A stretch of 56,768 nt of DNA from a virus (taxonomy: Duplodnaviria > Caudoviricetes). Below are positions 31,980 to 54,810 of this stretch, piece by piece. The translations under genes and the position numbers were made by a program. Location of the stretch: positions 1 through 56,768 of the IMG/VR virus record IMGVR_UViG_3300025030_000126. The stretch is one strand, 5' to 3'. A model generated the notes under the pieces. That model was not told the DNA's origin, did not search any database, and saw nothing but the letters and a program-made list of their open reading frames with translations. Each line of letters starts with the position of its first letter. The stretch's first letter is position 1.

Positions 31980-32001
31980 TCGCTGAGAATTGGAGGTTGT
32001 A

Positions 32002-35725: not shown

Positions 35726-37543
35726 ATGGTAACGATAGAGTTTGAGGACTACACCAAAAAGGGGCTCAAGTCGCTCCTCCAGAAGTTCGATAAAGCAGGG
35801 CTCCCGGTAAAGGAGACCGTGGCCGACAACAAGAGCAAGCGCGAGAACGGTTACGCCATCAAGGCGGCTATGCTCACCTTCGAGAGCGGTCAGACTCTCG
35901 TGCTGAAGATCAAGGCCGGGGGAAGTCTCTATCAGGCAAAGCTGAACGGCAAGGTCCTGGCGATCAAGAACTACATCAAGCCGGACACCTTCACCGATGA
36001 GGTCCTGGCCTACGTCAAGGAGAATGAGCCCGCCTACGCGAAGCAGAAGGAAAAGCAGCTTTCGCGGGTGAAGGTCATCGCCCCCAAGGTCAAGGCGATC
36101 AACACCAGCACTGCCGAGCAGATTCACACCTTCACGGCGTCCTTGGAGGAGTTCAAAGGACAGAACGGGGCTGTGCAGGAGCAGATTGCGGCACTCCAGC
36201 CCGTTGTGGTCGAGAAGGACAGGAGCCTGCTGAGACTCCAGGCACAGATCGAAGAGGAAAACAACAAATCGACCGTTCTGCAAAGGCAACTCGAAAACCT
36301 GAAGAGCGGCATCATGGAGAGCGCCAACGATGGGCAACTCATGGAAACGCAGTGCCCCAAGTGCGGAGCAGTGATGGACGATTGCGAAGGCGGCAAAAAA
36401 TGCCCCGCATGCGGTTGTCAAATCGACGGCACGGGGGCAATCCTCGAAGCCGCAGGCACCGCCCCGGTGCAGATCGACCGTATCCGTATCGCGCAGGATC
36501 TGCTGCACGGCAGAGCAAGACACCCGAAACTCACCGCTGCCTTCATCGAGGGATTCAACAACTCCTGCGAGATCAACGACGCCATCGCCTTCATCGAGAG
36601 CTTCACCGATGACGAGCTGATGGGGTTCCTGAAGGCCGAAGAGAACATCTTTGAGTCGGTGCAGCTCAAGGCAGAGGGGAAGATTGCCCGACTCACCAAG
36701 AAAGAGTTCCTGACCGGCATCAAGGCCCCGGAAGATGCCGCGATCCTCGAAGCCGTCGACCTGTTCAACGCGCATCAGGAAGAGCAGGACATGCCGGGGC
36801 GGGCGATGATTCTGGAGTGGGGCAGCGATAACGACGGCAACCCGGATAATGGTGTTGAAACAGGCTCCCCTGCCGAGATTATCGGCGTTCCCGATGGGCG
36901 TGCTACCTACGCCGAACGCTCCGAGTCTACCGGCTGGGCGGTTTTCCAGGACACCACGATTCTCTCCCCCTTCACCTATCCGGCGCCTATCGTTGCAACC
37001 AGCGGTTCCCGTGGCGATTGCCCGAAATGCGGCAGCGACATGACCGCCTGCGAGGGAGGCAGGGAGTGCCCCGCCTGCGGGTGCAAGACCGACATGGACG
37101 GCATGGTGATGGAGAGCGCCAAGCCCCATAGCAACGGTACCGAAGTCACCCTCAAGGGCCACCGTGAAGAGGGCGACGCGCTCGCGGGCAAGAAGGTGCT
37201 GATTCTCGAATCCGTCCCGACCGCTCATGGCCCCTTCTACAAGGTCCAGCACGAGGGGATGATCTACCGGGGCATAGCGCCCGCGATGATCCTCGAAGGC
37301 ATCGGGCTGGAGATCGACAGGAGCGGGGAGCACGACATTGACGACCCGCTGCATGTTGACGACCCCGAGCACGATCAGGGGGCAACAACCCACAAGCCGT
37401 GCCCGTGGTGCGGAGCAGACGTGCAGGAAAATGTCTGCATCAACTGTCACCGGCAGTACCCGATGGCCGTGCAGGACAGGAAGACCTGGGAGGCCGCCAA
37501 CAAGCCGCTTCCGGCCAACGATTTCCCCGAGCAATACGAATAG
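35726..37543 (+). CDS. hdf: Hdf homolog with long C-terminal extension (Zn ribbons, repeated protease-site motifs)
   Basis: F.....KGL..L...F.K.G ... Q.KLNGK N-terminal domain + coiled coil as in P1 Hdf; directly upstream of darA. Confidence 0.82.
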   Translation: MVTIEFEDYTKKGLKSLLQKFDKAGLPVKETVADNKSKRENGYAIKAAMLTFESGQTLVLKIKAGGSLYQAKLNGKVLAIKNYIKPDTFTDEVLAYVKENEPAYAKQKEKQLSRVKVIAPKVKAINTSTAEQIHTFTASLEEFKGQNGAVQEQIAALQPVVVEKDRSLLRLQAQIEEENNKSTVLQRQLENLKSGIMESANDGQLMETQCPKCGAVMDDCEGGKKCPACGCQIDGTGAILEAAGTAPVQIDRIRIAQDLLHGRARHPKLTAAFIEGFNNSCEINDAIAFIESFTDDELMGFLKAEENIFESVQLKAEGKIARLTKKEFLTGIKAPEDAAILEAVDLFNAHQEEQDMPGRAMILEWGSDNDGNPDNGVETGSPAEIIGVPDGRATYAERSESTGWAVFQDTTILSPFTYPAPIVATSGSRGDCPKCGSDMTACEGGRECPACGCKTDMDGMVMESAKPHSNGTEVTLKGHREEGDALAGKKVLILESVPTAHGPFYKVQHEGMIYRGIAPAMILEGIGLEIDRSGEHDIDDPLHVDDPEHDQGATTHKPCPWCGADVQENVCINCHRQYPMAVQDRKTWEAANKPLPANDFPEQYE

Positions 37544-37572
37544 CCATTAATTTCCCGGAGGGAGGGACACCA

Positions 37573-39459
37573 ATGTTATACCGCATGCAGGACGCAAGGA
37601 AGATCAGAATCACCTTTGACCCGTTTGCCAAAGGGTTCACCCCGGAGCAACTGACCGATGCTCACTACCGCCTCACCTGTGACCCGAAACAGGCGCTGCT
37701 GATTCTGGAGTGCGCCGACATGGCCGACATGGACGCGGAGTACGGCGGCGAAGAGCAGACCTGCAACGGCTGTTCTGGCAACTGCGCGGGCTGCGGCAAT
37801 GCGCGGGACAACGGGATGGTTCTGGAGGCGGTGCGGGTTCGCTCCTTCTCCCGGACGGCACAGACCATGATGGCCCTCGCCAAGTCCCTGAACCGGTACA
37901 TGGCCGACAAGGGTCTGACGGTAGGAGAGGCCAACATCGGCAAGCCCCGGCAGTCCGGCATGTTCGCCACTGTGACGGTGCAGTTCCCTGTTTCGGACGG
38001 GCAGGCGATCACTATCGTTTTCCACTCCCCGGACAACAACAAGATGAAGATCACCGCCGCCGACGAGATACTGGCCTTCCGCTGGCTCTTGAACAAGCGG
38101 GACATCACCGTGGCCGTTTCCCCGGAAGGTGAAGCCGACGTGTCTCTGGAAGAAGTAGGCAAGCGCGTCGCCATGCTGGTAGAGAAGAACGCCAAGGTCT
38201 TCGCTTCCAAGTCCAAGGAGATAGCCGACCAGAAGACGGCGCTCGCCGACGTGCAGACTCAGGTTGCCACGGCGCAGGCCGAGAACCAGACCCTGATGGC
38301 GACCCTCACGGAGACTCAGGCGCAGGCGGAAACGCTCGACGGTGACATCCAAAAGGCGACCGAGCAGCTTACCAAGGTGCAGGCGTTCAACGCTGAACTT
38401 GAAACCCAGATCAGCTCCCTTCAGGCCGTGCAGAAGGGGAACGAGGGTAAAGCTCCGGGGGAAGGGGCGAAAACCCCGGAACAGGTGCAGGCCGAAGCGG
38501 ACGCGGCAATAATCACAGGTTCGGTTGATAAGTACGTTAATGAAATGTCCGGTAGAGGGTTCACTGTGAAGCCTCTAGGAGAAGGGCTGTCATTTCAGGG
38601 CGCGTCCTTTGATGACCCTTCTGGGGAGGCTGCTGGCGGGCTGGCATTGAGATCCTTTTACTATCCTTCGGGTAAGGGCGGCTTTACCGTGCAGGCTTCT
38701 CTTAATGCCGGGGCAGGCAAAGTTGCCGAAGACTCTGCCGAGTACACGGCCAAGTCGTTTGCGACACTCGATGGCATGTTTGCAAAAGCCCTCGCATGGA
38801 TAGACAAGAAACTGGCAGGGATGAAGAAGGCGGAAGCCGAGGTTGTCAACCCGCCTCTTGAAGTCCCTGTTGGGACGCCAAAGGAAAATAGTGTCTTCTT
38901 TGCAGAAGGACCAGTACGCAAAGGGTTATCCTCTACAGAAATAGACGCAGAAACACAAGCTTGGCTTAATAATGCCATGGGTGAGGCTACAGCCAAAGTC
39001 CGTAGTCTCAACCTACCGGCTGAATTCAACGAGCAGGTAGACCGATTTGAAAAATCAATCGGCAACGTAGTCACGCTGAATGACCAAAGAGTAGCCGATG
39101 ACGGCAATATGGTCTGGTTTATGATACGTAATGCACTCAAGATCGACGCCGCAGAAGTGGAGGATCGCGTTTATCAGTATCAAGTAGAGGTAATAGCCAG
39201 AATCAAAGACGCAGGAGATCAGGCGATACCGACCGACACCAACCCCGACCGCGCCGAAGAGAACGAGGCCGTCACCATCCTGAACGACATCATCGCCGGG
39301 GCCTATGCAACCAGTACCGAAATGGATGCGGCTCTTGACGAGGCGGCATCAGCACTGGAAGCCGCTGGGATGATGGACGACCCCGCAATCGACAAGCTGC
39401 TGAATGAAGCAGCCGATGCGCTTACGGTCAAGCTCCAAGCCGAATCGGCGGGGGTGTAA
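37573..39459 (+). CDS. darA: defence against restriction protein A (internal head protein)
   Basis: P.SDGQ.I.I.FHSP, AF..LLNK.D.T.V.P, LVEKN...F; C-terminal A..AL.AAG......L.N.AA..L...L....GV. Confidence 0.92.
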   Translation: MLYRMQDARKIRITFDPFAKGFTPEQLTDAHYRLTCDPKQALLILECADMADMDAEYGGEEQTCNGCSGNCAGCGNARDNGMVLEAVRVRSFSRTAQTMMALAKSLNRYMADKGLTVGEANIGKPRQSGMFATVTVQFPVSDGQAITIVFHSPDNNKMKITAADEILAFRWLLNKRDITVAVSPEGEADVSLEEVGKRVAMLVEKNAKVFASKSKEIADQKTALADVQTQVATAQAENQTLMATLTETQAQAETLDGDIQKATEQLTKVQAFNAELETQISSLQAVQKGNEGKAPGEGAKTPEQVQAEADAAIITGSVDKYVNEMSGRGFTVKPLGEGLSFQGASFDDPSGEAAGGLALRSFYYPSGKGGFTVQASLNAGAGKVAEDSAEYTAKSFATLDGMFAKALAWIDKKLAGMKKAEAEVVNPPLEVPVGTPKENSVFFAEGPVRKGLSSTEIDAETQAWLNNAMGEATAKVRSLNLPAEFNEQVDRFEKSIGNVVTLNDQRVADDGNMVWFMIRNALKIDAAEVEDRVYQYQVEVIARIKDAGDQAIPTDTNPDRAEENEAVTILNDIIAGAYATSTEMDAALDEAASALEAAGMMDDPAIDKLLNEAADALTVKLQAESAGV

Positions 39460-39460
39460 C

Positions 39461-40120
39461 ATGGCCCTTTCCTTTTCCGAGAGACGAAGCCTTCAAAAGA
39501 CCGTCATGACCAACCTCGCAGCCCTTGCGGCGGGGAAGGTCACCTTTTCCGACCGGCGCAGACTCCAGAAAGAAGTCATTGAGGCCATGGCGAAGTTGAA
39601 CGCCACGGCCCCGGCAGTAGTGACCGAAACGGGCAAGCAACCGTGGGAACTGACCTACAGCGTAATCAAGGACGCTCTGGACTTCATTGATTTGGCGGGC
39701 AGGGATAAGGCCGCGTCATTGATTGCAGCACTCTATCCTGAAAACGCTGATGAGACGTCACCCCGTCTTGATTTCACAAGCCTTTCAAGGAGGCACAAGG
39801 ATTCAATCAGGCAGGCACTCGCAGACGGCAAGACCGTCCCGCCTGAAGTCCTTGCTGAGTATGCAGAGTTTTCGCAAGTCAACCTCCCGCCCATCAACCA
39901 GAACCTCGCCGACCTTCAGTCGGGCAAGTTCGACAGTCTCGACCCTCTGGCCTTCCTTGGCAAGCTGAAGTCCATCGCCGACGCCATCAACGACATCGAA
40001 CCCCTGAAGGGTCCGGCCATCGCCTACATCGAGAAGAACAGTGACAAGGTGAACTCCATCATGGAGAGTGCCATGCACGAGGCTTTCGGGAAGCTCTGGA
40101 GCGCGGGCGCGGGGGCGTAG
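39461..40120 (+). CDS. ddrA: DdrA homolog with central insertion
   Basis: M.LS..E...L N-terminus and L..KF......AF.G.L C-terminal domain; follows darA. Confidence 0.78.
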   Translation: MALSFSERRSLQKTVMTNLAALAAGKVTFSDRRRLQKEVIEAMAKLNATAPAVVTETGKQPWELTYSVIKDALDFIDLAGRDKAASLIAALYPENADETSPRLDFTSLSRRHKDSIRQALADGKTVPPEVLAEYAEFSQVNLPPINQNLADLQSGKFDSLDPLAFLGKLKSIADAINDIEPLKGPAIAYIEKNSDKVNSIMESAMHEAFGKLWSAGAGA

Positions 40121-42685
40121 ATGCAAAAAACCATCTGTGTCGACTTCGACGGGGTAATCGCCGACTACAGCCAGGGCTTTCAAGGCAGGGAGGTATTTGG
40201 CGAGCCTTTGCACGGGGCGGGTTCCAGCATGGGGGCGCTCAAGGAGGATGGCTGGAGGGTCATCATCTTCACCACGCGCCCGAACACCCCCGCCTTGCGC
40301 GAGTACCTGCGCGAGAACGGCATCCCCTACGATTACATCAACGAGAATCCCGACCAGCCGAAGGGGGCCAATCCAGGGAAACCAATAGCCAGCGTCTACC
40401 TTGACGACCGCGCCTTTAGGTTCAAGGGGTGGGCCGATTTCCGCTATGCTCTTGACGCTATGGTGAAAGAAAAGATCCTGGAGTCTGCCGCTTCCGACGA
40501 CTGGCAGGGGCTAAAGCTGCTTTTGGAACCGTCACAGGCCCCCTTGATTTTAGAGGGTGCCATCACCCCGGACGACGACCTGCTCAACGAGTGGTGGGGT
40601 AAGATTTGGCCCCAGTATGAGGATGAGGGGTACACGAAAGACGAGATAAGGGGGTACATCCTTAGTGGCAACTGGGATGCCGACCATCTCCGCAACGACA
40701 TCGCCGAGCATGACGCCAAGTATGACGACGGCCCCGGTATTGTGCTTTCCGACAGTGCGGCGGAAGAGGCGCAGACCTACGCCGTCAAGGGTATTCGGAA
40801 CGCTCCCGACTTCGCTTCCCTGGCGTCGTGGTTCGCTTCCGCTTTCGACAACGGGCCAGCGGGGGAATTTACCGGTGTCTCGGACGCAGCACGGAACATT
40901 GACGCCGTTTGGTCGGTTGCCAACCGTCTAAAGACTTTACGCGCAATCCATGATGACGAAAACGCGGATATTGACGACCGACTGGAGGCGACCAAGGAAT
41001 TCAATACCATCGTGATCGACTATCAGATCGGCCTTGGAAATGGCGCGTTTATCTACAAGGACACCGTCACAAGGTTGACAGGCGTAGACGTCAGCAAACT
41101 CAAAATGCCGATTGAGGGAACCGTGTACGGCAACATGAAACTCGCCGCTTATCGTGATGAGGCTCAGAACGTATACGCCCGCGCAGGAGTGGCACCGCAG
41201 GCCGCACTCAGGAGGATCAAAGCCGCCAACGACGAAGTGACCCGCGCCACGGAAGAACTGAGCGCCAAGGTGACGCCGATCAACCAAGCATGGGATTCCC
41301 GACGTATAGCTATCCTCGATCAAAATAGTTACAAGGAGAAACAGCAGGAGATCAAGGATGTTGAGGCGGCGTTCAGGGCGAGGCGGGAGGAATTGGGCAA
41401 AGAGCGGCCCAAGGATTTCTCCTACGCTATCGGAGCCAACCAGGCGGATTACCTGCGGACCTACGAAGAATGGTCAGCGAAGATGCAGGCCATATGGGAT
41501 GAGCAGGGTGACGCACTCGGAAAGATCCGGGACGAGCTACGGGCGCTCTATGCCGCCGCCGAGCAAGAGGCAGGCGACATCAACGCGGAGACGGCCCCCT
41601 TCCTCGAAGAGTACAAGCGTTTCACCGACGCACAAAGTGCCGAGATAGCCGCAGCTCGTGCCGATATCGGCAAGATCAAGGAGCACGTTATTGCCGTTTC
41701 CCCTGTGTCGCAAGAGACCGCCGAGCAATGGTTCAAAGACATGGTGTTGATCCCCAAGAACATGCAAGCCAACTTAAAGAAACGCGGCTATGACATGGAG
41801 ACCTTGCAGCGGGACATGACGGAGTTCCATCGCCTCACGGGTGGGAGGCTCCCCCGTATCAGCTTTGAGACCAAAGGGGGTGGCAGGGCCGCAGCGCAGC
41901 CGGGGATAGGAGTGGTGTATGTGGCCGGTGACTTCCCGCGTCAAACCCTTTTCCATGAACTCGCTCATATCCTAGAAGACGACGAAAGGACCCGTATCAT
42001 AGCCAACAGTTTTCTTGACCAGAGAACCGGGAGACTGGAAGAACGGAAACTGAAAAGATTGTCCGAACTCACGGGGAACCCTGGCTATAAATCTAGCGAG
42101 GTAGCGTTCCCTGATAGTTTCGTCAATCCTTACGTGGGGAAACATTACAGCGACGGGGCAACCGAGGTCTTCTCTATGGGGATGCAGTATTTCTCTTCAC
42201 CGGAGGCTATGGCGACCTTACTGGAGAAGGACCCCGATCACTTCAACTTCATGCTGGGCTATGCCGCTACCTTGCCACGGATTGACAAGGCCAAAGTGGA
42301 GGCACAGCAAAAGGCCATGGGCGAAAAGAAGGATGCCTTGCAAACCTCAGAGGAGTTTTTAAAGTCCATCGACAAGAAAATCGCCAAGGCAGGGGATTTC
42401 TGGACTAAAGAGAATATTGGTATTATCAATGGCTATCGGAATACGTTCTTCGCGCAATATGATGGTCCTGACTATCACAAAGAGGGCGTGATTTCGCGCC
42501 ATCAAACGTGGTCAGTCAAGGGAGAAAAGAATATCAAGCGGGCTATCTGGATCTGGATTGCGGCAGGCAAGCCGATGAGCGGAGATTTCTACATTGATAA
42601 CCTAGTCAACGATGTATTCAGCCGAAAGAAGATAGAGATCACCGGCAGTTTTGCCAAAGACCCAGCCATACAGGGGGCGCTATGA
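40121..42685 (+). CDS. ddrB: DdrB-like polyvalent protein: HAD phosphatase + coiled coil + zincin metallopeptidase
   Basis: DFDGVI...FTTR...K...YLDDRA (HAD); RLTGG, HELAH, Y.GK.Y...ATEVFSM as in P1 DdrB C-terminus. Confidence 0.82.
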   Translation: MQKTICVDFDGVIADYSQGFQGREVFGEPLHGAGSSMGALKEDGWRVIIFTTRPNTPALREYLRENGIPYDYINENPDQPKGANPGKPIASVYLDDRAFRFKGWADFRYALDAMVKEKILESAASDDWQGLKLLLEPSQAPLILEGAITPDDDLLNEWWGKIWPQYEDEGYTKDEIRGYILSGNWDADHLRNDIAEHDAKYDDGPGIVLSDSAAEEAQTYAVKGIRNAPDFASLASWFASAFDNGPAGEFTGVSDAARNIDAVWSVANRLKTLRAIHDDENADIDDRLEATKEFNTIVIDYQIGLGNGAFIYKDTVTRLTGVDVSKLKMPIEGTVYGNMKLAAYRDEAQNVYARAGVAPQAALRRIKAANDEVTRATEELSAKVTPINQAWDSRRIAILDQNSYKEKQQEIKDVEAAFRARREELGKERPKDFSYAIGANQADYLRTYEEWSAKMQAIWDEQGDALGKIRDELRALYAAAEQEAGDINAETAPFLEEYKRFTDAQSAEIAAARADIGKIKEHVIAVSPVSQETAEQWFKDMVLIPKNMQANLKKRGYDMETLQRDMTEFHRLTGGRLPRISFETKGGGRAAAQPGIGVVYVAGDFPRQTLFHELAHILEDDERTRIIANSFLDQRTGRLEERKLKRLSELTGNPGYKSSEVAFPDSFVNPYVGKHYSDGATEVFSMGMQYFSSPEAMATLLEKDPDHFNFMLGYAATLPRIDKAKVEAQQKAMGEKKDALQTSEEFLKSIDKKIAKAGDFWTKENIGIINGYRNTFFAQYDGPDYHKEGVISRHQTWSVKGEKNIKRAIWIWIAAGKPMSGDFYIDNLVNDVFSRKKIEITGSFAKDPAIQGAL

Positions 42686-45243
42686 CCTACTTTCCCATTA
42701 CCCCCTACATCTTCGCAGTGGTAACTCTTGCTGGTACGGTTAAGATATCCTTTCCGGCAACCCAATGGGACATAGCAGTATCCCCGGAAACGGACGGCCC
42801 CGGCGCGGCCATTCTTGCGGGTTACTTGGCAGAGTACGGCATAGGTTTCAGGGGCCAGCTTTTCACTCTGGAAGCCGTTTCTCCCATGGACCTACACCAT
42901 GCCCTTCTGATGAACGCTACAACGCACCACGGCCCTCTCATAGTCTCCTTTGACGTGATAGGGTATGTTCCCGAAACGAACCCGGACGCCGAGGATGACA
43001 GCCGGTGGGCTGATGAAGAGGATGATGAGGACGATGGAAACATGGGGATCAGTGCGGTGCTGGAAAGCGCAATCGCAGAGGATTGGCGTGAGGAACTTTA
43101 TGCTGCCATGGCGGAAGACGGCCATTTATTTGAGTCTTCTGCTGAAGATAACGAATGGCGTCTCAAGCCGAGCGTACTGGGGCGGTTGCAGGGTAAAGCT
43201 TTACAGGAAGTCAGGGCACTTGGTTTCGATACCGAAGAAAGCGCCATAGTGATTGACGGTAGCGCTATCGCATATATCCGTACAAAACATGGCAATCAAC
43301 TCACTCAGGAGGATGAAAAATACCTCAAACTTGCGGTAACCCATCCTACGGAAATCTTGCCAAATATCGACAAGGGCGGATTCATGGGGGTGGGCCGCTC
43401 TAAGAGCGTCCTGATGATCTATCGTGGTGACAAGGATTACATGACGATTGTGGAGGTGGGGCCAAAGGACGGAACAAATGTAGTATGGAACTTTTGGAAG
43501 ATGAAGGGGGCCAAGGCGAGTAATTACTTGGCTAAATTTAGACAAGAAAAAGCCCGCATTCTTCAGTCTGGAGGGGCGACCATAGCTATCCCTCGTGTTC
43601 CTCCTACCAATGGAGGCAGTGGCAAACCGGAGGGTCTTCCCGGAAGTCAGACTGAAGAAGCGGGTTCTTCAGATTCAAAGGTATCAAAAGACGGCAAGCC
43701 TGTCAAGCCTATCCTCGAATCTGCCACAGCCGAAGAGGTACACGCCGCCGCTCACGAGGCCGCCACGAGTCACCTGAACGACCTCCCGGAGCCGACCGAA
43801 GCGCAGAAGCTGGTGGGGAAGTACAAGATGGGGCACGTCCGTATGCACGGGCTTGACATCACCATCGAGAACCCCAAGGGCTCCGAGCGTAAAGGGATCG
43901 ACCCGGACGGCAAGCCGTGGGCCGTCACCATGCCCTACCACTACGGCTACATCAAGGGAACGCTTGCCGTGGACGGCGACCACGTTGACTGCTGCATCGG
44001 GGATCACCCGGAGAGCGAGCTTGTTTTTGTGACGGACCAAGTAGACGCTAAAACTGGGCGCTATGATGAGGTGAAGTGCATCCTTGGCTGCCTCTCTCAG
44101 AAAGATGCTCATACCCTATTCATTTCTGGGTTCAGCGACAACAAGGGGGCGAAGCGGCTGGGGGCGATGACCGCGCTGCATATGCCGGACTTCAAGTCAT
44201 GGCTCTCCGGGGATACCACAAAGCCGCTTTCGGATGCGATTATGGAGGCGGCCTTCACCGAGTCCGAGTTACGAGAATGGGCGCAACGCTCCCCGCTTGC
44301 ATGGAAAGCCCGGATTCTTGACGCAGTATCCTTTGACGACATACAAGCGGCTTTCGCGCAGAAATGGCCGGGGGTCATCTCCCCGCCTGCTGCTGTCAGA
44401 TATAGGGGGATGGAGAACCTACACCCAACGGCAATGGCCGAAGTGGAGAAAGTGCTAGGCCAGATAGTGAACGATTTTGGACTGCCTGAGATCGGCGTTT
44501 CCGTGGGAACTGATAGCCGTAGGGCGCTGGGCACTGCAAGCTGGGGCGGTTTTTCGCTGAACAAAAAGTTTGAGAACAAGCCGCTAAATGAAATAGACAA
44601 GGAATTGCAGCTTCAGTACAGGTTAGGCTGGGTTACGGCGCACGAAGCCGGACATGTCATTGAACATATTATTGAGGATGCTCCCGATGTAAGGGGAGAA
44701 AAAAACCTTGGGTACCAGCGGGCTATAAGGAAAATCAAAGCCGATCAAGCCAAAGATACCAGCGCAGATGGTGGTACTGTTACGCTCTATGCTCAGAAAA
44801 ACAACAGCGAGTTTGTAGCAGAGCATTTTGCCGATGCGGTCATTAGGGGCGACAAGGCAAGCCCCTATTCCAAACTGGTATACCAGACACTAAAGGAGTG
44901 GTATGCCAAAAACAAATACAAAAGTTTCAGAGATGCCAGTAACGGGTACAAGCAAGAGCTGGATAAAGAGCGGGCGATTAAAGCCGAGAAACTTGCACGG
45001 GCCATAACCAAAGAGACTCTGCCCGGAAATGGCAGCATCGTAGAAGATAAATTCGGCAAGGAATATCTGGTTATGATGGCAAGGAACAGCATTGTCAATG
45101 TCGTGCCAATCATAGACGGTAAGGCGCAAGTCAACTCAGAGAGTCGGATTTCATTCAACATAGACCCCGGCTTTACACCGGCATCCGATCAAACTAGGAA
45201 CCAGCCATTATATACGACAGGACGTGACTATTATGCAGATTGA
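42682..45243 (+). CDS. polyvalent protein: Hxr-like N-terminus + PBECR-like nuclease + inorganic pyrophosphatase-like domain + zincin metallopeptidase
   Basis: Acidic-tailed N-domain in hxr position; I..S.I.YI..KHG; IENPKGS.R.G.D..GK.W...M..HYGYIKGT..DGDHVD; HEAGH...YA..N.SEFVAE. Confidence 0.8.
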   Translation: MTYFPITPYIFAVVTLAGTVKISFPATQWDIAVSPETDGPGAAILAGYLAEYGIGFRGQLFTLEAVSPMDLHHALLMNATTHHGPLIVSFDVIGYVPETNPDAEDDSRWADEEDDEDDGNMGISAVLESAIAEDWREELYAAMAEDGHLFESSAEDNEWRLKPSVLGRLQGKALQEVRALGFDTEESAIVIDGSAIAYIRTKHGNQLTQEDEKYLKLAVTHPTEILPNIDKGGFMGVGRSKSVLMIYRGDKDYMTIVEVGPKDGTNVVWNFWKMKGAKASNYLAKFRQEKARILQSGGATIAIPRVPPTNGGSGKPEGLPGSQTEEAGSSDSKVSKDGKPVKPILESATAEEVHAAAHEAATSHLNDLPEPTEAQKLVGKYKMGHVRMHGLDITIENPKGSERKGIDPDGKPWAVTMPYHYGYIKGTLAVDGDHVDCCIGDHPESELVFVTDQVDAKTGRYDEVKCILGCLSQKDAHTLFISGFSDNKGAKRLGAMTALHMPDFKSWLSGDTTKPLSDAIMEAAFTESELREWAQRSPLAWKARILDAVSFDDIQAAFAQKWPGVISPPAAVRYRGMENLHPTAMAEVEKVLGQIVNDFGLPEIGVSVGTDSRRALGTASWGGFSLNKKFENKPLNEIDKELQLQYRLGWVTAHEAGHVIEHIIEDAPDVRGEKNLGYQRAIRKIKADQAKDTSADGGTVTLYAQKNNSEFVAEHFADAVIRGDKASPYSKLVYQTLKEWYAKNKYKSFRDASNGYKQELDKERAIKAEKLARAITKETLPGNGSIVEDKFGKEYLVMMARNSIVNVVPIIDGKAQVNSESRISFNIDPGFTPASDQTRNQPLYTTGRDYYAD

Positions 45244-45569: not shown

Positions 45570-48500
45570 ATGAGAGTAAATCCCGGAACCGGCGCACTTG
45601 GTTATGCCAAGCTGTCGTTACAGCAGGCGACCTCATTCCTCGACTTCGCCGAGGTTTTCAAGACCCTCTTCAAGATCAGCATCCCCGGACAGGACCCGCC
45701 GAAGGACCCCAACGACTACAAGAACGAGAACAGCGACTACGGCCTGCTGGTTCGCGGCAAGAAGGCTCGCGAGAAGCTGAACAAGGCGGCCAAGGAAATT
45801 CTCTCCCGCGTGACGAACCCCGCCGACCTCAACGAAGAGGAACGGGCCATCCTGAAGCAGTATTCCGGCAAGGGGGGGCTCTCCGACAACTCCCAGTACG
45901 AATACTACACCCCCCAGCACGTCGCTGAAGGCGTCTGGAGCGGCCTTGTAGCCAACGGCATGAGTAACGGCAACATCCTTGACCCCAGTTGCTTTGTACC
46001 CACAACCTTGGTCAAAACACGCGAGGGCCGTAAACCGATCAGCGAGATACTGAACGGGGATCAGGTTTTCTGCCATGACGGCGGGTACCACGAAGTTGTC
46101 AATCTAGTTTCCCATGACGTTGAGGCAAGCCTTGTTGCTATCGAGGTGTCTGCCTTCCCCTCCCCACTTGAATCAACCTCCGACCATGAACTTTACGCGG
46201 TACAGACTAAAAAATGCACCGCAAGAAAAGACAGGCCATGCCATGTGCAGCAGGGTGAAACGTGCCAGTACCTTCAGAGGTACGGTTCAAAGACACGCAA
46301 GCACCGTTGTGGTGAGCCGTGGAAGTCTTACGTGCCATCGTGGGTGCCCGCTGAAAAACTCCAAATAGGGGATTGCCTTGTCGAAGTTTTTGACCGCACG
46401 GTAGAGGATGTTTCGACGCTGGTTCTATCGGAAGAGCGTACTGCTAATCTGCGCGGGCCACTCTCCATAGACTGCGACATCGCCTTACTTAAAGCCATAG
46501 GCATCTACCTCGCGGAAGGCTTTGTAGACGAAAACTCAGTCATTTTCGCCTTCAGAGAAGATGAAACGGACATGCACGAAGCCCTCATCTCAGCTTTCGA
46601 GCCCCATGGATGGAAAGTCAATGTCGTTGAGAGAGAAAACAACGAGTCTTCGCGCTTCATGGTGCATTCGCGCTCCCTTGTCGGGTTGATGAAGCAGTTC
46701 GGGCGTGGCGCAGAAAATAAAGCTATTCCAGCATGGTGCATGACTCTGCCATTGGAGAAGCAGGCCGCGTTGCTTTGGGGTATTTGGCGGGGCGATGGTA
46801 GCACGAGCAAGGACGGGATCACGGCGGTTGCGTCCGTAAGCAAAGAACTTGCTTTTGGAATAAGGGATATCCTCTATCGTTTTGGAATAGTCCCAAGCGT
46901 GGGGATAAGGACCGCGCTCAAGCCGGAGACCAAGCTCATTTTGGGGCAAACTATTACGCGGCAGTTGCCGATGTATAGTGTCGATATCTACGGGGAGCAT
47001 TTGGAAAATGCGGCAAAGGTTTTCGGTATCCAGCACCCGCAGATCGAAGCCCGCTCGCATACCCGGAACCTGTCTGGAGTAGTTAAAGACGGCATGGTTT
47101 TCCACAAGGTCAAACAGACGTCAAGGTTCGACTATGCCGGGAAGGTTCACGACCTGACAGTCGAGGGCGCACATAGCTATACCGCTGGCCCCTGTACCGT
47201 TCACAACTGCGGCCACGGCATGTTTTCGGCGACCAAACCGGCAGGCATGGTCATCACCGGCTGCGACCTCGACCCCGTGGCATCCAAGGTGGCGCAGCTT
47301 CTCAACGCAGGCGACTCCATCACCAACAAGAGCTTCGAGAAGTTCTGCTCCGACACCCCGGACAACTCCTTCGACGGCTGCTGCACCAACGTGCCCTTCG
47401 GCGACGCCCGTGGGGCCTACAAGTTCGATGACCCCCCCTACAAGAACGAGGGGAAGATTCAACGGTACTTCATCTCCCGGATTCTGGACAAGATCAAGCC
47501 GGGGGGGCTCGCCGTCCTGATCGTTCCTACCGACATCGTAGGGGCCAAGGGCTCGACCGACTGGGCCAAGTGGCGCAACTCCGTTTCCCGCAAGGCCGAG
47601 TTCCTTGGCGCTCACAAGCTCCCTTCCAAAACCTTCGCAGCACAGGGCACCGATACCGTCGTGGACGTGGTTGTCTTCCGCAAGCACCCGCAGAGCCTGC
47701 TGGACATCGTGAACGACCTCTCCTTCGAGACCCTGATGAGTACCAACGTCATCTTTGACGAGTTCATTGCAGGGCGCTACTGGCTGGGCGAGGGGCGGCC
47801 CTTCATCATGGGCAAGTGGGTCCCGAAGATTGCAGGCGACAGGTTCAGCCGGGAAGCCGTGGACGGCGACGTGGACGACGCGGGACTGAAGGCGAAGCTG
47901 GCCTCACGTTTCGTTTCCCGGATCGACTGGGCCGCGCTCGCCGTGGCAGAGCCGGTGCCCCGCAACTACGTGGAAGGCGACCGCAAGGTGATAAACGGCA
48001 TCGAGTGCGAGATGCAGCAGGGCGCATGGACCCGCGTGGCTTCAGTGGACGACAAGGAGGCCCTTGACCCGCAGAAGTACGGCGCTGCCAGCATCGAAGA
48101 GCTGAAGGCTCGCCTCGACTCCCCCAAGGGCTGCCTTTCCTTCACCGCGTACCAGCTCTTCGCCATCTACAAGACCTACCCGGACCTGCTGTCGGCCCTC
48201 GCTTCGGCATCGGTAGAGTTCGCCATGAGCCAGCCCAAGGAAGAGCTGGCGGAACAGCTCTTCAGGGGCTCCATCATCGGCGGAATGATTGCCCGCTATC
48301 AGGATCGGTTCAACAACGGGAGCGCCGACGACTCCGAGCGCCTTGCGCTTCAGGACCTCATCTCAAACGAGATCGACCGCTTCGGGCACCCGAAGAACAA
48401 CCGGGGCATCATGCTCACCGGGGAGTCTTCCAAGATGTTCGGCCTGTTCTCCAACGCCCTTGACGAGAAGGGGAACTTCTCCGACCTCTTGAACGGCACC

Positions 48501-51500
48501 CTTGAGGACTCCGGGCGGCATCTCCAGTACGACTCTACCAACGTGCAGTCGCTGGTGGAACACCTGTTCATCCGGGAAGGCATCCAGACCATCGAGCTTG
48601 ACGACGTGCAGAAGCTCTACACCGGGGGGCTGCCGGTGGCGTCTCTGGGCGACCTCGCCGCCTTCGACAACGTAGCCATCTCCCCGGACGGGATCATCTA
48701 CCCGATGTCCCGCTACTGCTCCGGCGACATCTATCCCAAACTTCAGGCCCTCTACGCCGCCATGGCCGACGAGACCGACGAGCGGATCAAGGCGAAGTAC
48801 ATGCAGATGATCGGGATCATCAACGGCAAGAGGAAGAAGACCAAGCCGGAAGATGTCGCCTTCGACTTCAACCACAAGTGGTACTCCAAGAGCTACGTGC
48901 TGGACTTCCTGAAGGAAAACGGCTACCCGCAAGTCACCTACGGCAGCGAGCAGGAAGTGCAGAAGGAAGACCCCTACTCCGGCAAGATGCGTACCGTGAA
49001 GGAGTGGGTGCAGGACCCGGAGAACCCCTTCGGCTCCTTCCGCATTCTGGGGGGCAAGAAGCCCGCAGGCTTCGACCTCCAGTTCGAGAACTACATGAAC
49101 GGCAAGCCTATCAGGGGCGGCAAGGATGACGACGACGGAGACCTGAAAAAGCAGTATTACGACAACATCAAGAACTTCCGCGAAACCTTCAACATGTGGA
49201 TGCAGCAGCAGCCCAACATTGACGAGCTGGCGGAACAGTACAACATGAAGTTCAACGCCTTCCTCCCCCCTGAGTACGAGATGACCGACTTGGGGCTTCA
49301 GGGAGTCAGCAAGAAGATCGTGCTGCACGGCTACCAGAACGCGGCTATTCGGCGTTTTTCCGAGGAAGGGCGGGGTATCCTCGCCGACGACGTGGGACTG
49401 GGCAAGACGCTCCAGACGCTGGCCCTTGTCAAGTACAACCTCCAGATGGGGCGCAGCAAGAAGACCTGTATCGTGGTTCCCAAGGCGGTCTTCTCCAACT
49501 GGTATCACGAGGCCCGCAACTACTACGAGGGGATGGACGACGCGCTGTTCGTGGGGATGCGCTTTGACCGCGCCAAGGACGGGGTAATCCTTCAGGAGCC
49601 GGTTCTCGATGAGGCAGGGAACCAGAAGATCAACAAGTACACCAACGAGGCCATGTGGCAGGACAAGATAGCCTCCGGGGAGTTCGACGCCACGGAAGTC
49701 TATGACGACATGTGGCAGATTCCGCAGAGCAACGTGAAGCTCGTGGTGATGACCTACGAGAAGTTCAAGAGCATACCGCTCCGGCCCGACACGAAACAGG
49801 GGTTCATCGACAAGTGGAGCCAGCGCGGCCTGCTCTCCAAACAGGCCATCAAGGCCAACTCCGAAGGGAAGGACGACGAGGTAGGCGACGAGAAGAGCCT
49901 GAACTACAACGAGGTCAAGCAGGTAGAACGCGCCGAGGGCAAGTTCGCCGATACCGGGGCCAAGAAGGGGGAGCTGCCGTACTTCGAGGACATGGGCTTC
50001 ACCGACGTGATAACCGACGAATTCCACTCCTACAAGAACAGCTTCGAGGCAGGCGAAGAGGCCAGCCGCCTTGCCTACGTCTCTACCGCCCCGGCGTCAC
50101 AGCGCGGGCTCGACATGCAGATGAAAATGGGGCACATCCGGGCGACCAACAACGACCGGGGCTCCTACGGGCTCACGGCGACGCCCGTCACTAACTCCCC
50201 GGTGGAAATCTTCAACATGCTGGCCTACGTCATGCCGCTGGAGGAATTCGAGCGGTTCGGCGTCTTCACCCCCGACGACTTTATCCGGGTCTTTGGACAG
50301 AAGGACATCGTGGACAAGATGACCATCGCCAACGAGACCAAGGCGACGGAAGGGCTTGTCGGCTTCCAGAACCTCGACGGGCTCCGCAACATCTTCCACA
50401 AATACTGCCTGCTTCGCACGGCAAAGGACGTGGACCTCGATCTTCCCCCCAGCGAGGAATTCCACGAGGAAGCAATCCTCACCGACGAGCAGCAGGGTAT
50501 CTATGACGAGCTGAAGGAAGAGGCCAAGGCCGCGACCAAGGATGACAGCTCGAAGTTCTCCGGCGACCCCCGCCCCGTCTTCTCCATCATCCGTGACATG
50601 GAGCAGGTTTCCATGGACCCGGACATCTTCCACAGACGGATGACCTTTCACTTCGCCAAGGGGGATCAGGAGAAGGTAAAGCAGCTTTTGAAGATCATCC
50701 CGCAGGAAGTCTCCGTCCGGGTCACTCCCCGCGTGGGCGACCCGGAGTATGACCTCGAAAGGGCCGAGATGGGCGAGCCCCAGAAAGCGGTGAGCCGTAT
50801 CTACCGCCTGCTAGATTCGCTGGAGACGGACCTGAAGGGGGATGTCTTCATCGTGCGCCTTGCCGACGCCTTCGAGCCGTTCCTGATGGACGCCAAGAAG
50901 CTCCGGGACGTGAAGCTCGACGTGGGCACCGTGGGGCACCCGCTCACCCCGAAATACGCCCTGCTGGTGGACAGGGTGCAGAAGATCCACGAGTTGGGCG
51001 GCAAACAGATCATCTTCAGCGATGAGAAGGCCCAACATCAAAAGGTGGCGCGTATCCTCACCCACTATCTGCCGATGCTCCGGAGCAAGATCGGCATCAT
51101 CAACGCCGACGAGGCGAAGGGGAGCGAGCTTCAGCGGATCAGCGACCGCTACAACTCCGGGGAATACTCCATGGTCATCTGTAACCAGAAGGCCGAAGTG
51201 GGCGTCAACCTCCAGAAAGGGACCCGCGCAATCCATCACCTTACCTTCCCGTGGACCCCTTCCAGCATCCAGCAGCGCAACGGGCGCGGGGTCAGGCAGG
51301 GCAACGAGGCCGACAACATCAAGATTTACTACTATCAGGGCAAGGGCTCCTTCGACGCCTACCGCCTGCACCTGATAAGCAAGAAAGCAGGGTGGATTGG
51401 CGACATCTTCCGCTCCGACTCATCGACCGCCGCCAACGCCAATGCCGCGAGCGCCGACGAAATCCGGTTCATGTTCGAGGACAACCCGGAAGAGGCCAAG

Positions 51501-53165: not shown

Positions 53166-53570
53166 ATGATCTATAAACCGAAAGCCGAAGAATTAAATGC
53201 CATGCTGGCTGAATCGGGCCAAGCCCGCGACATGTGGGCTGAAGGATTCCTGGCAGTGGTCAAGCGCGTCCTTCTCAAGGACCCGCTGCGCTATCGCAGC
53301 TTTGGCCCGTGGTGGTGGCTGGTCAAGGCGGCGTTTTTGAAACGCGACGAGGCCGCCTTTGGGCAGACCATGGAGGACGCCTGGACCGAGAGTATGACCT
53401 ATGGCGACGAGACCCTGGACCTGTTGGCAGCGTTTGCCTATCAGGACGCGCAGATAGGGCGCGGGATCATGCGCGAGGCGCAGCACGTCCTTGATACGGA
53501 CGATGACCCGATCAAATTCTTCTCCAATGACGAAGATATGGAGCAGAGAGCGGCGGTCAAAAGGCCGTAA
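53166..53570 (+). CDS. ulx: Ulx homolog (Dar system accessory)
   Basis: FL.....LLK.P..YRS.GP.W...K...L......FG, Y....L.L.AA..Y; downstream of darB. Confidence 0.88.
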   Translation: MIYKPKAEELNAMLAESGQARDMWAEGFLAVVKRVLLKDPLRYRSFGPWWWLVKAAFLKRDEAAFGQTMEDAWTESMTYGDETLDLLAAFAYQDAQIGRGIMREAQHVLDTDDDPIKFFSNDEDMEQRAAVKRP

Positions 53571-53670: not shown

Positions 53671-53868
53671 GCTGTAACTGGCAGCAAATGCTGAAAGGCT
53701 AAAATCTCAAGTACCGAGCGAGTAACCCTTGAGCCTCACGAGGCAATAGTGGGCGAACGCAGCCGAAGCGGTAGAGTAGGCAACAGCCGGAGACAGAAAC
53801 GGGGGGGAGACCCCCGGCCAGTTCTACCAATAACAGCTCCGGGGTGGAGGGTGGGCCTTTGCCCCGGA
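53671..53868 (+). ncRNA. candidate multi-helix leader/ncRNA, family unknown
   Basis: Starts right after the -10; closing AACTGGC/GCCAGTT helix, several internal hairpins, GGGGG-GAGA-CCCCC; no credible ORF. Confidence 0.6.
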
Positions 53869-53891
53869 AGCACAACGCAAGGAGGAAGGCC

Positions 53892-54676: not shown

Positions 54677-54810
54677 GAATCATCATGGTCAAAATCACCG
54701 ACCCGAAGCCCTGCATTCAGTGCGAGAGGATCATCCAGATCGGCGAGTGGGCGCAGGCCCACGGCAGCACGGGTTTTTCTTGCGCGACATGCGGAGCGGG
54801 GAATGCTTAA
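54673..54810 (+). CDS. small CxxC-CxxC protein
   Basis: ATGA overlap; CIQC..CATC. Confidence 0.5.
   Translation: MRIIMVKITDPKPCIQCERIIQIGEWAQAHGSTGFSCATCGAGNA

What the first reader, a model, noticed from the sequence alone, without database searches (positions are those of the whole stretch)
35726..45243. Dar operon proteins look like polyproteins segmented by repeated head-protease sites
Seen: [IVL][LMF]E-[SAG, sometimes W/C] recurs in Hdf (36311 IMES, 36440 ILEA, 36647 IFES, 36743 ILEA, 36809 ILEW, 37106 VMES, 37202 ILES, 37289 ILEG), DarA (37702, 37819), DdrA (40058), DdrB (40475 ILES, 40547 ILEG) and the Hxr fusion (43057 VLES, 43126 LFES, 43711 ILES, 44239 IMEA). It also ends the capsid propeptide (17417 ILESA) and occurs in gp21 (21617, 22007). 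In DdrB and the Hxr fusion the sites fall at domain borders (HAD | peptidase; Hxr | nuclease | pyrophosphatase | peptidase). Established: T4-type prohead proteases cleave after (I/L)-X-E, and P1 gp23 and DarA are processed. Inference: effectors are packaged as concatemers and released in the head by the maturation protease, giving a plug-in cassette for injected anti-defence enzymes.
Basis: partly seen in the sequence, partly recalled or inferred. Interest (0 to 1): 0.85.

Follow-up and report, generated by a model that had tools for sequence, protein, structure and literature searches.

The report
Protease-site punctuation of phage Dar cargo
In this P1-like phage the proteins that are packed into the head to fight host restriction carry many copies of the head-maturation protease's cutting motif, placed at the borders of their modules, which suggests they are loaded as fusions and cut apart inside the capsid.

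Summary
All 21 motif occurrences lie at the stated coordinates. In Hdf, DarA, DdrA, DdrB and the 853-aa protein the motif occurs 17 times against 1.6 expected (0 of 2000 shuffles reach 17). 'ILE' is the most over-represented tripeptide in those five proteins.

The motif matches the only mapped cut in phage P1: gp23 is cut at AMLE|S, and the window's capsid LILE|S aligns with that site. The DarA site aligns with P1 LLE|A at residues 66-69, and residues 1-69 are missing from the P1 cryo-EM map.

In six P1-like genomes the motif is concentrated in MCP, Pro, portal and gp21 (45 observed, 5.6 expected) and in Dar cargo (45 observed, 9.2 expected). It is not enriched elsewhere (43 observed, 50.2 expected). 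Sites also share an unselected Ala at P2'.

Sites sit at module borders:
- The InPase module is flanked by sites in 7 of 7 Dar-type proteins and in 0 of 11 others.
- 30 of 111 homology breakpoints lie within 12 residues of a site, against 9 expected.

Cleavage itself is inferred, not shown. The 'Hxr' label is not supported. The Hdf tail looks more like small peptides than enzymes. I rate this a new variant of a known kind.

The parts
35726..37543 (+). Hdf-like gene (605 aa). Residues 1-198 are the Hdf/DarA_N-type domain plus a helix. Residues 199-605 are a lineage-specific tail carrying 8 motif sites.
   Evidence: phrog_1620 and PF18788. BLAST to P1 Hdf covers residues 3-195 only. Sites. All motif Glu residues are invariant in 5 homologues.
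36311..36322 (+). Site IME|S (Hdf residues 196-199), at the end of the part homologous to P1 Hdf
36440..36451 (+). Site ILE|A (Hdf 239-242). With the previous site it brackets a hypervariable cassette.
36647..36658 (+). Site IFE|S (Hdf 308-311)
36743..36754 (+). Site ILE|A (Hdf 340-343)
36809..36820 (+). Site ILE|W (Hdf 362-365; P1' is Trp here and Cys in homologues)
37106..37117 (+). Site VME|S (Hdf 461-464), after a zinc-ribbon-like CxxC...CxxC segment
37202..37213 (+). Site ILE|S (Hdf 493-496)
37289..37300 (+). Site ILE|G (Hdf 522-525)
37573..39459 (+). DarA gene (628 aa). The DarA_N domain lies downstream of the two N-terminal sites.
   Evidence: PF18788 E 5.6e-27 and phrog_1926. BLAST to P1 DarA.
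37702..37713 (+). Site ILE|C (DarA 44-47); only partly conserved in relatives
37819..37830 (+). Site VLE|A (DarA 83-86). It would remove an 85-residue propeptide. It aligns with P1 DarA LLE|A at 66-69.
   Evidence: P1 DarA loses about 9 kDa and residues 1-69 are not seen in the map (PMC12810830).
39461..40120 (+). DdrA-like gene (219 aa)
   Evidence: phrog_1855 at E 2.5e-4, a weak match
40058..40069 (+). Site IME|S (DdrA 200-203). It would remove the last 17 residues. It is conserved in the G001 and G003 homologues.
40121..42685 (+). DdrB-like gene (854 aa). HAD-like domain at 1-121, a 24-residue spacer, then a 709-residue body with an HExxH metallopeptidase-like region.
   Evidence: phrog_1238 (residues 2-121) and phrog_20397 (517-741). 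BLAST to the C-terminal part of P1 DdrB. DxDGV and HELAH are read from the translation.
40475..40486 (+). Site ILE|S (DdrB 119-122), at the end of the HAD-like domain
   Evidence: The G001 homologue lacks the HAD domain and starts 4 residues before this site.
40547..40558 (+). Site ILE|G (DdrB 143-146)
42682..45243 (+). Order of parts: leader module 1-128, spacer 129-151, PBECR3 nuclease-fold module 152-346, InPase 347-522, HExxH-bearing tail 523-853.
   Evidence: PF18812 (178-280) and PF18823 (373-508). Homology breakpoints at 130, 159, 344 and 526. HEAGH is read. No likeness to P1 Hxr.
43057..43068 (+). Site VLE|S (residues 126-129), after the leader module and its acidic run
43126..43137 (+). 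Site LFE|S (residues 149-152), in front of the nuclease-fold module
43711..43722 (+). Site ILE|S (residues 344-347), exactly at the upstream border of InPase
44239..44250 (+). Site IME|A (residues 520-523), exactly at the downstream border of InPase
17081..18691 (+). Major capsid protein (536 aa), homologue of P1 gp23
   Evidence: phrog_1014. 28-29% identity to P1 gp23.
17417..17428 (+). Site ILE|S (MCP 113-116). It aligns with the mapped P1 gp23 cut MLE|S (E120|S121).
17243..17254 (+). Site IFE|G (MCP 55-58), inside the propeptide. IFE|G is kept in G001-G003. G004 (IYES) and P1 (VFAG) lack the motif at this column.
21524..22198 (+). gp21 homologue (224 aa): acidic body and a very basic 60-residue C-terminus
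   Evidence: phrog_1053. BLAST to P1 gp21. Fragment pI values.
21617..21628 (+). Site ILE|A (gp21 32-35). The aligned column carries I-L/F-E in all 6 genomes, but P1' is Glu in G002 and G003.
22007..22018 (+). Site VLE|S (gp21 162-165), in front of the basic tail. It is conserved in 5 of 6 genomes; P1 has LTE|A.
45570..53108 (+).
53166..53570 (+). Ulx-like gene; no site
   Evidence: phrog_1629, BLAST

Best explanation
The recurring motif, consensus x-(I/V/L)-(L/M/F)-E|(S/A/G)-A, is the recognition site of the P1-type prohead maturation protease Pro, which cuts after Glu as T4 gp21 does. The Pro gene lies in the missing part of this 63%-complete record.

Proposed sequence of events:
1. The Dar proteins are built into the procapsid as precursors.
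2. Pro then trims the capsid protein, the portal tail and itself.
3. Pro cuts the Dar cargo at its module borders.

Predicted cuts in the cargo:
- An 85-residue propeptide is removed from DarA.
- A 17-residue tail is removed from DdrA.
- The HAD-like domain and a spacer are removed from DdrB.
- The 853-aa polyvalent protein is split into leader, spacer, PBECR3 nuclease-fold module, InPase and a metallopeptidase-bearing tail.
- The 400-residue Hdf extension is chopped into small peptides. That leaves a 22-kDa Hdf the size of P1's.

Because a site marks each junction, modules can be added, lost or reordered by recombination without disturbing packaging. DarB carries no site and stays whole.

What is shown: the motif's positions, its enrichment, its conservation, its coincidence with module borders, and its identity with the mapped P1 gp23 site.

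What is inferred: that Pro is the enzyme, that these sites are cut, and that the released enzymatic modules act separately after ejection. I put cleavage at about 0.75 and separately acting released effectors at about 0.45.
For: 1. Match to experiment in P1.
- gp23 is cut at E120|S121 (Edman sequencing, PMC9024508). The sequence there is AMLE|SVAAEM, and the window's LILE|SA aligns with it, as do all 4 relatives.
- P1 DarA has a single site, LLE|A at 66-69. It loses about 9 kDa, and residues 1-69 are absent from the cryo-EM map (PMC12810830).
- P1 Hdf has no site and is reported as not processed.
- P1 DarB has no site and is described as a 250-kDa virion protein.

2. Enrichment.
- In the window, 17 observed against 1.6 expected.
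- Over six genomes: MCP, Pro, portal and gp21 have 45 against 5.6; Dar cargo 45 against 9.2; DarB plus Ulx 6 against 7.4; all other proteins 43 against 50.2.

3. Positions outside the search pattern also differ between head or Dar sites and other sites.
- P2' is Ala in 52 of 88 against 6 of 48.
- P3 is Ile in 57 of 88 against 13 of 48.
- P1' is Ser in 52 of 88 against 6 of 48.

4. Pro itself carries 3-5 sites. Sites at about residues 26, 164 and 176 recur in the relatives (the first is lost in G004). They bracket the invariant His56 and Ser129, as expected for a self-trimming protease.

5. Protease type. Language-model look-alikes of Pro residues 1-200 are Peptidase_S77 and S80 prohead proteases, scores 0.92-0.93 (a lead only). 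T4 gp21 cuts after Glu in I/LxE (PMC12991175, passage read).

6. Module borders.
- InPase has a site at its upstream border in 7 of 7 Dar-type proteins. It has one at its downstream border in 5 of the 5 whose chain continues past the domain. In 11 other InPase proteins the counts are 0 of 11 upstream and 0 downstream.
- 30 of 111 homology breakpoints lie within 12 residues of a site, against 9.0 expected. For the 853-aa protein it is 4 of 4 sites.
- In the AlphaFold model the 344 and 520 sites sit at the two edges of the only confident domain, and the 126 and 149 sites lie in low-confidence linker.

7. Hdf. All motif Glu residues are invariant in 5 homologues, while residues 199-238, between two sites, are replaced by unrelated sequence.

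8. Codons at the sites vary, so selection acts on the protein, not the DNA.
Against: - No cleavage data exist for this phage or its relatives.
- Pro is only a predicted protease even in P1. It matched no Pfam protease family and no solved structure by sequence profile. Peptidase_S77 and S78 models found nothing in the four relatives.
- P1 DdrB is reported to be processed to 76 kDa (as cited in PMC5512222). Its one strict site would instead give fragments of 47.9 and 60.9 kDa. Only a looser IGE|A site gives 80 kDa.
- Dar cargo is not significantly enriched in P1 (2 against 1.24) or in G002 (4 against 1.82; 112 of 1000 shuffles reach 4).
- Several module junctions carry no site. Examples are the DdrB body 146-854, which G001 encodes as two genes, and residues 523-853 of the polyvalent protein.
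- Both AlphaFold models are poor (mean pLDDT 52.8 and 45.2), so statements about exposure are weak.
- The cross-genome counts and the breakpoint test include orthologous sites, so their p-values are overstated.
- My gene caller is crude. It lost DarA in the window and Hdf in G001.
- Depletion of the motif in DarB is seen in the window and G001 (1 against 5.6 and 4.7) but not in G002 or G003 (9 against 5.8 and 6 against 5.7).
Confidence: 0.62

Rival explanations
1. The sites are real Pro sites, but their role is clearance rather than release of effectors. The cut-off parts (the Hdf tail, the leaders, the spacers, perhaps the N-terminal domains) would serve in assembly, size determination or targeting. 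They would then be degraded to make room for DNA, like T4 core proteins or the multi-cut propeptides of giant phages. Only the last or largest piece would be the working cargo.
For: - Seven of the eight pieces predicted downstream of the Hdf domain have 22-81 residues and one has 99; none has a recognisable enzyme fold.
- P1 DarA and Hdf govern head size, and the DarA and MCP N-termini are proposed to act as scaffold (PMC12810830).
- In SPN3US all identified cuts other than the protease's own self-cleavage produce N-terminal propeptides, and long propeptides are removed by multiple cuts (PMC10052503).
- gp21, which is absent from the P1 virion table, carries conserved sites.
Against: - The InPase and PBECR3 modules are internal, are flanked by sites on both sides, and are well-conserved enzyme folds. 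That is hard to square with disposable propeptides.
- The Hdf tail is 63-93% conserved in sequence over its length, which is more than a spacer would need.
- Module order changes between relatives, so no single 'last piece' is privileged.
Confidence: 0.22
2. The cuts are made by the zincin-like metallopeptidase (HExxH) domains embedded in DdrB and in the 853-aa protein. This is the mechanism Iyer et al. proposed for polyvalent proteins. The head protease would not be involved.
For: - Both proteins carry HExxH regions (PHROG and P1 DdrB likeness).
- PMC5512222 proposes that the MPTase processes polyvalent proteins into functional units and that P1 DdrB cuts itself (passages read).
Against: - The same motif marks the mapped capsid maturation cut in P1.
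- It is also concentrated in Pro, the portal tail and gp21, which have no such peptidase.
- P1 = Glu with a hydrophobic residue at P3 is the known preference of T4 gp21.
- InPase proteins from other contexts lack the motif at the same borders (0 of 11).
Confidence: 0.08
3. The motif is not cut. It is either a shared structural or docking element of head-internal proteins, or a by-product of composition and common descent.
For: - No cleavage has been seen here.
- Many counted sites are orthologous.
- Some of the Hdf sites follow similar zinc-ribbon-like segments, so part of the count may come from internal duplication.
Against: - Edman sequencing in P1 places a cut exactly after the motif's Glu.
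- Controls with Asp, Gln or the reversed motif are flat.
- Codons differ and there are no long DNA repeats.
- The motif appears at junctions of unrelated modules.
Confidence: 0.05

Closest known systems
Phage P1 head maturation and Dar system (gp23, DarA, Hdf, DdrA, DdrB, DarB, Ulx; predicted protease Pro)
   Same: - Homologues of Hdf, DarA, DdrA, DdrB, DarB and Ulx are present, and the first four keep P1's order.
- The capsid site aligns with the mapped P1 cut, and the DarA site aligns with the end of the unseen P1 N-terminus.
- Pro homologues are present in 4 of 4 relatives.
   Different: - Distant relative: about 28% capsid identity and 57% GC.
- P1 Hdf is 203 aa, has no site and is not processed. 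Here Hdf is 605 aa with 8 sites.
- P1 has 2 strict sites in its Dar cargo; the window has 17.
- An extra polyvalent protein replaces hxr, and DdrB has gained a HAD-like head.
T4 prohead protease gp21 with capsid-targeting sequences on internal proteins (IPI-III, Alt)
   Same: - Cuts after Glu in I/LxE.
- Cargo destined for injection is loaded into the prohead and trimmed there. Foreign proteins can be targeted and processed (described in PMC9024508).
   Different: - In T4 a short N-terminal targeting peptide is removed from single-domain cargo (recalled).
- Here the sites are internal and multiple, and they separate whole domains.
- The consensus is tighter (I-L-E|S-A).
- Pro did not match the S77 Pfam model.
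Giant-phage (phiKZ, SPN3US) prohead protease processing of head and ejection proteins
   Same: One protease cuts many head proteins, often at several sites, and cuts itself (PMC10052503, abstract and passages).
   Different: There all identified cuts, apart from the protease's own self-cleavage, produce N-terminal propeptides. Here the predicted cuts also lie between internal enzymatic modules.
Polyvalent proteins of phages and conjugative elements (Iyer et al. 2017)
   Same: - Multi-domain, head-packaged proteins with InPase, PBECR and MPTase domains in shuffled orders.
- The idea that they are cut into functional units (PMC5512222).
   Different: - That paper assigns the cutting to the embedded MPTase. 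In its text, 'prohead' occurs once, in the reference list.
- Here a head-protease motif marks the junctions, and only in the P1-like lineage.

Membership tests
P1-type Dar (defence against restriction) operon | Homologues of hdf, darA, ddrA and ddrB in that order, with darB and ulx also present | tested here: met
   phrog_1620, PF18788, phrog_1855 (weak, E 2.5e-4), phrog_10089 and phrog_1629. BLAST to P1 Hdf, DarA, DdrB, DarB and Ulx. DdrA gave no BLAST hit to P1 DdrA.
P1-type Dar (defence against restriction) operon | An hxr gene after ddrB | tested here: not met
   BLAST at E 0.01 and a profile of 7 leader modules searched against the P1 proteome at E <= 10 both fail to find Hxr.
Substrates of a T4/P1-type prohead protease | The site matches an experimentally mapped cut of the family's protease | tested here: met
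   P1 gp23 AMLE|S aligns with the window's LILE|S. The same motif class occurs in the Dar proteins.
Substrates of a T4/P1-type prohead protease | A cognate protease gene in the genome | tested here: inconclusive
   Absent from the window, which is the whole 63%-complete record. Present in 4 of 4 relatives at 36-41% identity to P1 Pro.
Substrates of a T4/P1-type prohead protease | The protease belongs to the S77/S78/S80 herpesvirus-fold serine proteases | tested here: inconclusive
   No Pfam match. S77 and S78 models find nothing in the relatives. No PDB match by profile. Language-model look-alikes are S77 and S80 clusters. PMC9024508 reports an HHpred match to HK97 gp4.
Substrates of a T4/P1-type prohead protease | The protein is present in the procapsid and is actually cleaved | not testable with these tools
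   The only support is by homology: the P1 Dar proteins are found in virions (Table 1 of PMC9024508).
Polyvalent proteins (Iyer et al. 2017) | Several unrelated effector domains in one polypeptide, encoded in a phage packaging or late context, with shuffled architectures among relatives | tested here: met
   PBECR3 plus InPase plus an HExxH region. Relatives combine InPase with other modules in other orders.
Viral polyprotein in the strict sense | Every released piece is a separate working protein | not testable with these tools
   The enzymatic modules are plausible as separate proteins. The Hdf peptides and the spacers are not evidently functional.

The most novel reading that the evidence does not exclude
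P1-like phages run a plug-and-play delivery system. Any module placed between two I-L-E|S-A sites downstream of a conserved N-terminal leader (or fused to a resident Dar protein) rides into the procapsid. The head protease then frees it there, and it is injected with the DNA. The sites would serve both as processing signals and as the joints at which anti-defence modules are exchanged between phages. Toxic modules such as the nuclease-fold domain would stay harmless as fusions until they are sealed inside the capsid.
Probability: 0.4. Interest if true: 0.8.

Novelty: new variant of a known kind. Interest (0 to 1): 0.68.

Why it matters
- It gives a concrete, testable answer to how polyvalent head-packaged proteins are processed. 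The proposed enzyme is the capsid maturation protease acting at junction sites, rather than, or as well as, their own metallopeptidase domains.
- It proposes a consensus site for the P1-type protease. In the papers I read, only one cut has been mapped.
- It predicts the mature ends of P1 DarA and of the portal, Pro and gp21.
- P1 is already being explored as a protein-delivery particle through the DarB targeting signal (PMC9024508). Site-flanked cassettes would be a natural design rule for such cargo.
- I found no paper making this link, in three searches: 4 papers held at least 3 of the terms; 111 papers matched, of which I looked at the 15 listed; 0 hits. Piya et al. 2017 is not in the searchable library, and supplements were closed.

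Tried and rejected
- Nucleotide search of phage GenBank records with the Dar region found no match. The window has no close sequenced relative there.
- P1 Pro and portal proteins searched in the window's own record found nothing. The record is the window itself.
- Pfam on Pro and on the gp21-type, HAD-like and C-terminal regions found nothing useful.
- PDB sequence searches with the Pro profile, the HAD-like head and the C-terminal tail gave only chance-level hits.
- Peptidase_S77 and S78 models searched in four relatives gave no match.
- P1 DdrB: I tried to reconcile the reported 76-kDa product with a motif site. The strict site does not fit.
- Depletion of the motif in DarB as a sign of avoidance: seen in the window and G001, not in G002 or G003. 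Dropped as inconclusive.
- A DNA-repeat origin of the motif was rejected.
- The AlphaFold model of Hdf (mean pLDDT 45.2) is too poor to say more than that all 8 sites lie in segments below pLDDT 50, in a model where 358 of 605 residues do.

Full report
What the window is.
All long ORFs lie on the + strand. The window encodes the tail, baseplate, sheath and capsid genes of a distant P1-like myophage. The capsid protein is 27-29% identical to P1-group gp23, and the sheath, PmgB, PmgC, PmgG and gp21 homologues are recognisable. The window is a whole IMG/VR record judged 63% complete, and it holds no portal or Pro gene.

- Hdf-like, 35726-37543.
- DarA, 37573-39459.
- DdrA-like, 39461-40120.
- DdrB-like, 40121-42685.
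- An 853-aa polyvalent protein, 42682-45243.

It is followed by DarB (45570-53108, which contains an intein) and an Ulx-like gene (53166-53570).

The observation.
All motif occurrences are at the coordinates given. Counts against within-protein shuffles:
- The five Dar proteins hold 17 sites against 1.61 expected; 0 of 2000 shuffles reach 17.
- MCP plus gp21 hold 4 against 0.32.
- DarB holds 0 against 1.16.
- The other 36 ORFs hold 2 against 4.20.
- The reversed motif and the Asp and Gln versions are flat.

'ILE' comes first in the Dar proteins (10 against 1.03, p 1.5e-7), and in the rest of the window it is 2 against 2.92. Half of the ILE signal is in Hdf. Without Hdf it is 5 against 0.8 and ranks seventh. 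Codons differ among the sites, and there are only 15-17 nt DNA repeats, so the repetition is at the protein level.

Link to a known cut.
Gonzales et al. (PMC9024508; abstract, passages and Table 1 read) mapped the mature N-terminus of P1 gp23 by Edman degradation to S121. The P1 sequence there is AMLE|SVAAEM. In a six-genome alignment the window's LILE|SA, and the equivalent sites of four relatives, fall in the same column.

The other P1 Dar proteins fit the motif as follows:
- P1 DarA has one site, LLE|A at residues 66-69. The 2026 cryo-EM paper (PMC12810830; passages read) says residues 1-69 are not visible and that about 9 kDa is removed. The window's VLE|A (residues 83-86) aligns with that site in all six genomes.
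- P1 Hdf has no site and is reported as unprocessed.
- P1 DarB has no site and is described as a 250-kDa virion protein.
- P1 DdrB is the misfit. It is said to be processed to 76 kDa (as cited in PMC5512222), but its one strict site predicts fragments of 47.9 and 60.9 kDa.

Relatives.
A search with DarA found seven viral loci. Four of the contigs behind them, G001-G004 (75-97 kb), each encode a P1 Pro homologue at 36-41% identity. I fetched them whole.

I called genes with a simple codon-model caller of my own. It lost DarA in the window and Hdf in G001. I labelled genes by BLAST. Motif counts over the six genomes, P1 included:
- MCP, Pro, portal and gp21: 45 observed against 5.6 expected.
- Dar cargo: 45 against 9.2.
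- DarB plus Ulx: 6 against 7.4.
- Everything else: 43 against 50.2.

Taken genome by genome, Dar cargo is significant in the window, G001, G003 and G004 (0 of 1000 shuffles). It is not significant in G002 (112 of 1000) or P1 (351 of 1000). Many of these sites are orthologous, so the pooled numbers overstate independence.

Pro itself carries 3-5 sites. Sites at about residues 26, 164 and 176 recur in the relatives (the first is lost in G004), and they bracket the invariant His56 and Ser129. The portal has a site 12-22 residues from its C-terminus in P1, G001 and G004.

Positions that were not part of the search pattern separate head or Dar sites from the rest:
- P2' is Ala in 52 of 88 against 6 of 48.
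- P3 is Ile in 57 of 88 against 13 of 48.
- P1' is Ser in 52 of 88 against 6 of 48.

This gives a consensus of I-L-E|S-A.

Which enzyme.
T4 gp21 cuts after Glu in I/LxE (PMC12991175, passage read). I could not place Pro by standard tests:
- It has no Pfam family.
- The S77 and S78 models found nothing in the four relatives.
- A sequence profile found nothing in the PDB.

Two weaker lines point the right way. ESM-Atlas look-alikes of Pro residues 1-200 are S77 and S80 prohead-protease clusters at 0.92-0.93, which is a lead and not a test. Gonzales et al. report an HHpred match of P1 Pro to HK97 gp4. So the assignment of the cuts to Pro is an inference. It rests on the capsid site and on the distribution of the motif.

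Module borders.
In the 853-aa protein the four sites (Glu 128, 151, 346, 522) coincide with homology breakpoints at 130, 159, 344 and 526. They delimit five parts:
- a leader module, 1-128;
- a 23-residue spacer;
- a PBECR3 nuclease-fold module;
- InPase, 347-522;
- a tail bearing HExxH.

The AlphaFold model is poor overall (mean pLDDT 52.8). Its one confident domain, InPase, begins just after the 344 site and ends at the 520 site. The other two sites lie in low-confidence linker.

The database search gave 20 proteins, the window's own among them:
- Seven share modules with the window. All seven have a site at the upstream InPase border. All five whose chain continues past the domain have a site at the downstream border.
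- Eleven InPase proteins of other kinds (fused to portal, MuF, JAB, GGDEF and others) have no site at either border.
- Two of the 20 have no InPase.

Module order differs among relatives. For example, one has leader, InPase, spacer, nuclease-fold; another has leader, other modules, InPase at the end. The sites stay at the joints. Over 22 cargo proteins, 30 of 111 internal homology breakpoints lie within 12 residues of a site, against 9.0 expected. The nominal p of 3e-9 is overstated by shared ancestry.

In DdrB the two sites follow the HAD-like head (phrog_1238, residues 2-121). The G001 homologue lacks that head and starts four residues before the first site.

Hdf.
Only residues 3-195 resemble P1 Hdf, and the first site is at 196-199. 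The remaining 400 residues hold seven more sites, plus a similar FIE|S at 289-292. Cutting would give pieces of 22-99 residues, three of them with CxxC...CxxC segments.

Four homologues (63-91% identical in this part) keep every motif Glu. Residues 199-238, between the first two sites, are replaced by unrelated sequence of different length. This is a small variable cassette between fixed sites.

The Hdf model is too poor to use (mean pLDDT 45.2). These pieces do not look like enzymes. For Hdf a scaffold-like or peptide-releasing role is at least as likely as 'effectors'.

The 'Hxr' label.
The leader module of the 853-aa protein is N-terminal in 7 of 7 proteins that have it. It is followed by an acidic run and a site. 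It has no detectable likeness to P1 Hxr, so the label is not supported. A targeting role is my inference, by analogy with the DarB and T4 targeting signals.

Comparison with what is known.
- Head-protease trimming of injected proteins is classical in T4.
- Multi-site cutting of head and ejection proteins is documented in SPN3US. There all identified cuts other than the protease's self-cleavage produce N-terminal propeptides (PMC10052503).
- Polyvalent proteins, and the idea that they are cut into units, were described by Iyer et al., who assign the cutting to embedded metallopeptidases (PMC5512222).

What is new here is the proposed P1-type consensus and its placement at the joints of shuffled modules in one lineage. 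It points to the maturation protease as the processing enzyme.

Three literature searches found no paper stating this: 4 papers; 111 papers matched, 15 listed and looked at; 0 papers. Piya et al. 2017 is outside the searchable library, and supplements were closed.

Verdict.
The mechanism is well supported by comparison but has not been tested by experiment.

Noticed in passing
window 21524-22198: The gp21 homologue carries two motif sites. The first (ILE|A here) has I-L/F-E in all six genomes, with Glu at P1' in G002 and G003. The second (VLE|S here) is kept in five of six; P1 has LTE|A. Cutting would free a 60-residue C-terminal peptide of pI 12. P1 gp21 is not in the virion mass-spectrometry table, and no scaffold protein is known for P1. 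It may be a processed head-assembly or DNA-binding protein rather than 'baseplate or tail tube'.
   Followed up: partly
window 45570-53108 (about residues 141-546): DarB contains an intein (Hint_2, LAGLIDADG_3 and Intein_splicing hits). It is inserted at the position matching P1 DarB residue 120. G001 DarB (2122 aa) is about 390 residues shorter, which fits its absence there; I did not align the two.
   Followed up: partly
window 7229-8275: A TnpB / Cas12f-like ORF (Cas12f1-like_TNB and OrfB_IS605) sits among the phage genes upstream of the tail-fibre region.
   Followed up: no
window 36320-36439 (Hdf residues 199-238): A hypervariable cassette lies between two invariant motif sites. It is a zinc-ribbon-like CxxC...CxxC segment here and in one homologue, and unrelated sequence of 40-95 residues in three others.
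   Followed up: partly
L015:14431-15447 (Pro of relative G001) and its orthologues: The Pro homologues carry 3-5 copies of the motif. Sites at about residues 26, 164 and 176 recur (the first is lost in G004) and bracket the invariant His56 and Ser129. This suggests self-trimming to a core of about 138 residues. PHROGs labels this family 'tail fiber protein', which looks wrong.
   Followed up: partly
window 42682-43065 (residues 1-128 of the 853-aa protein): A conserved module of about 105 residues is always N-terminal (7 of 7 proteins). It is followed by an acidic run and a motif site. It may be a capsid-targeting leader. It is unrelated to P1 Hxr.
   Followed up: partly
L016 (G001 53766-55959) versus window 40121-42685: The closest relative encodes the DdrB body as two overlapping ORFs (matching window DdrB 115-482 and 497-854) and lacks the HAD-like head. 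This could be a real split or a frameshift in the assembly.
   Followed up: no
window 10152-13409 and 31990-35187: Two very long fibre-like proteins have low-complexity Ala/Ser/Thr-rich repeats. One has a collagen-repeat hit. They dominate the tripeptide statistics of the non-Dar proteins.
   Followed up: no
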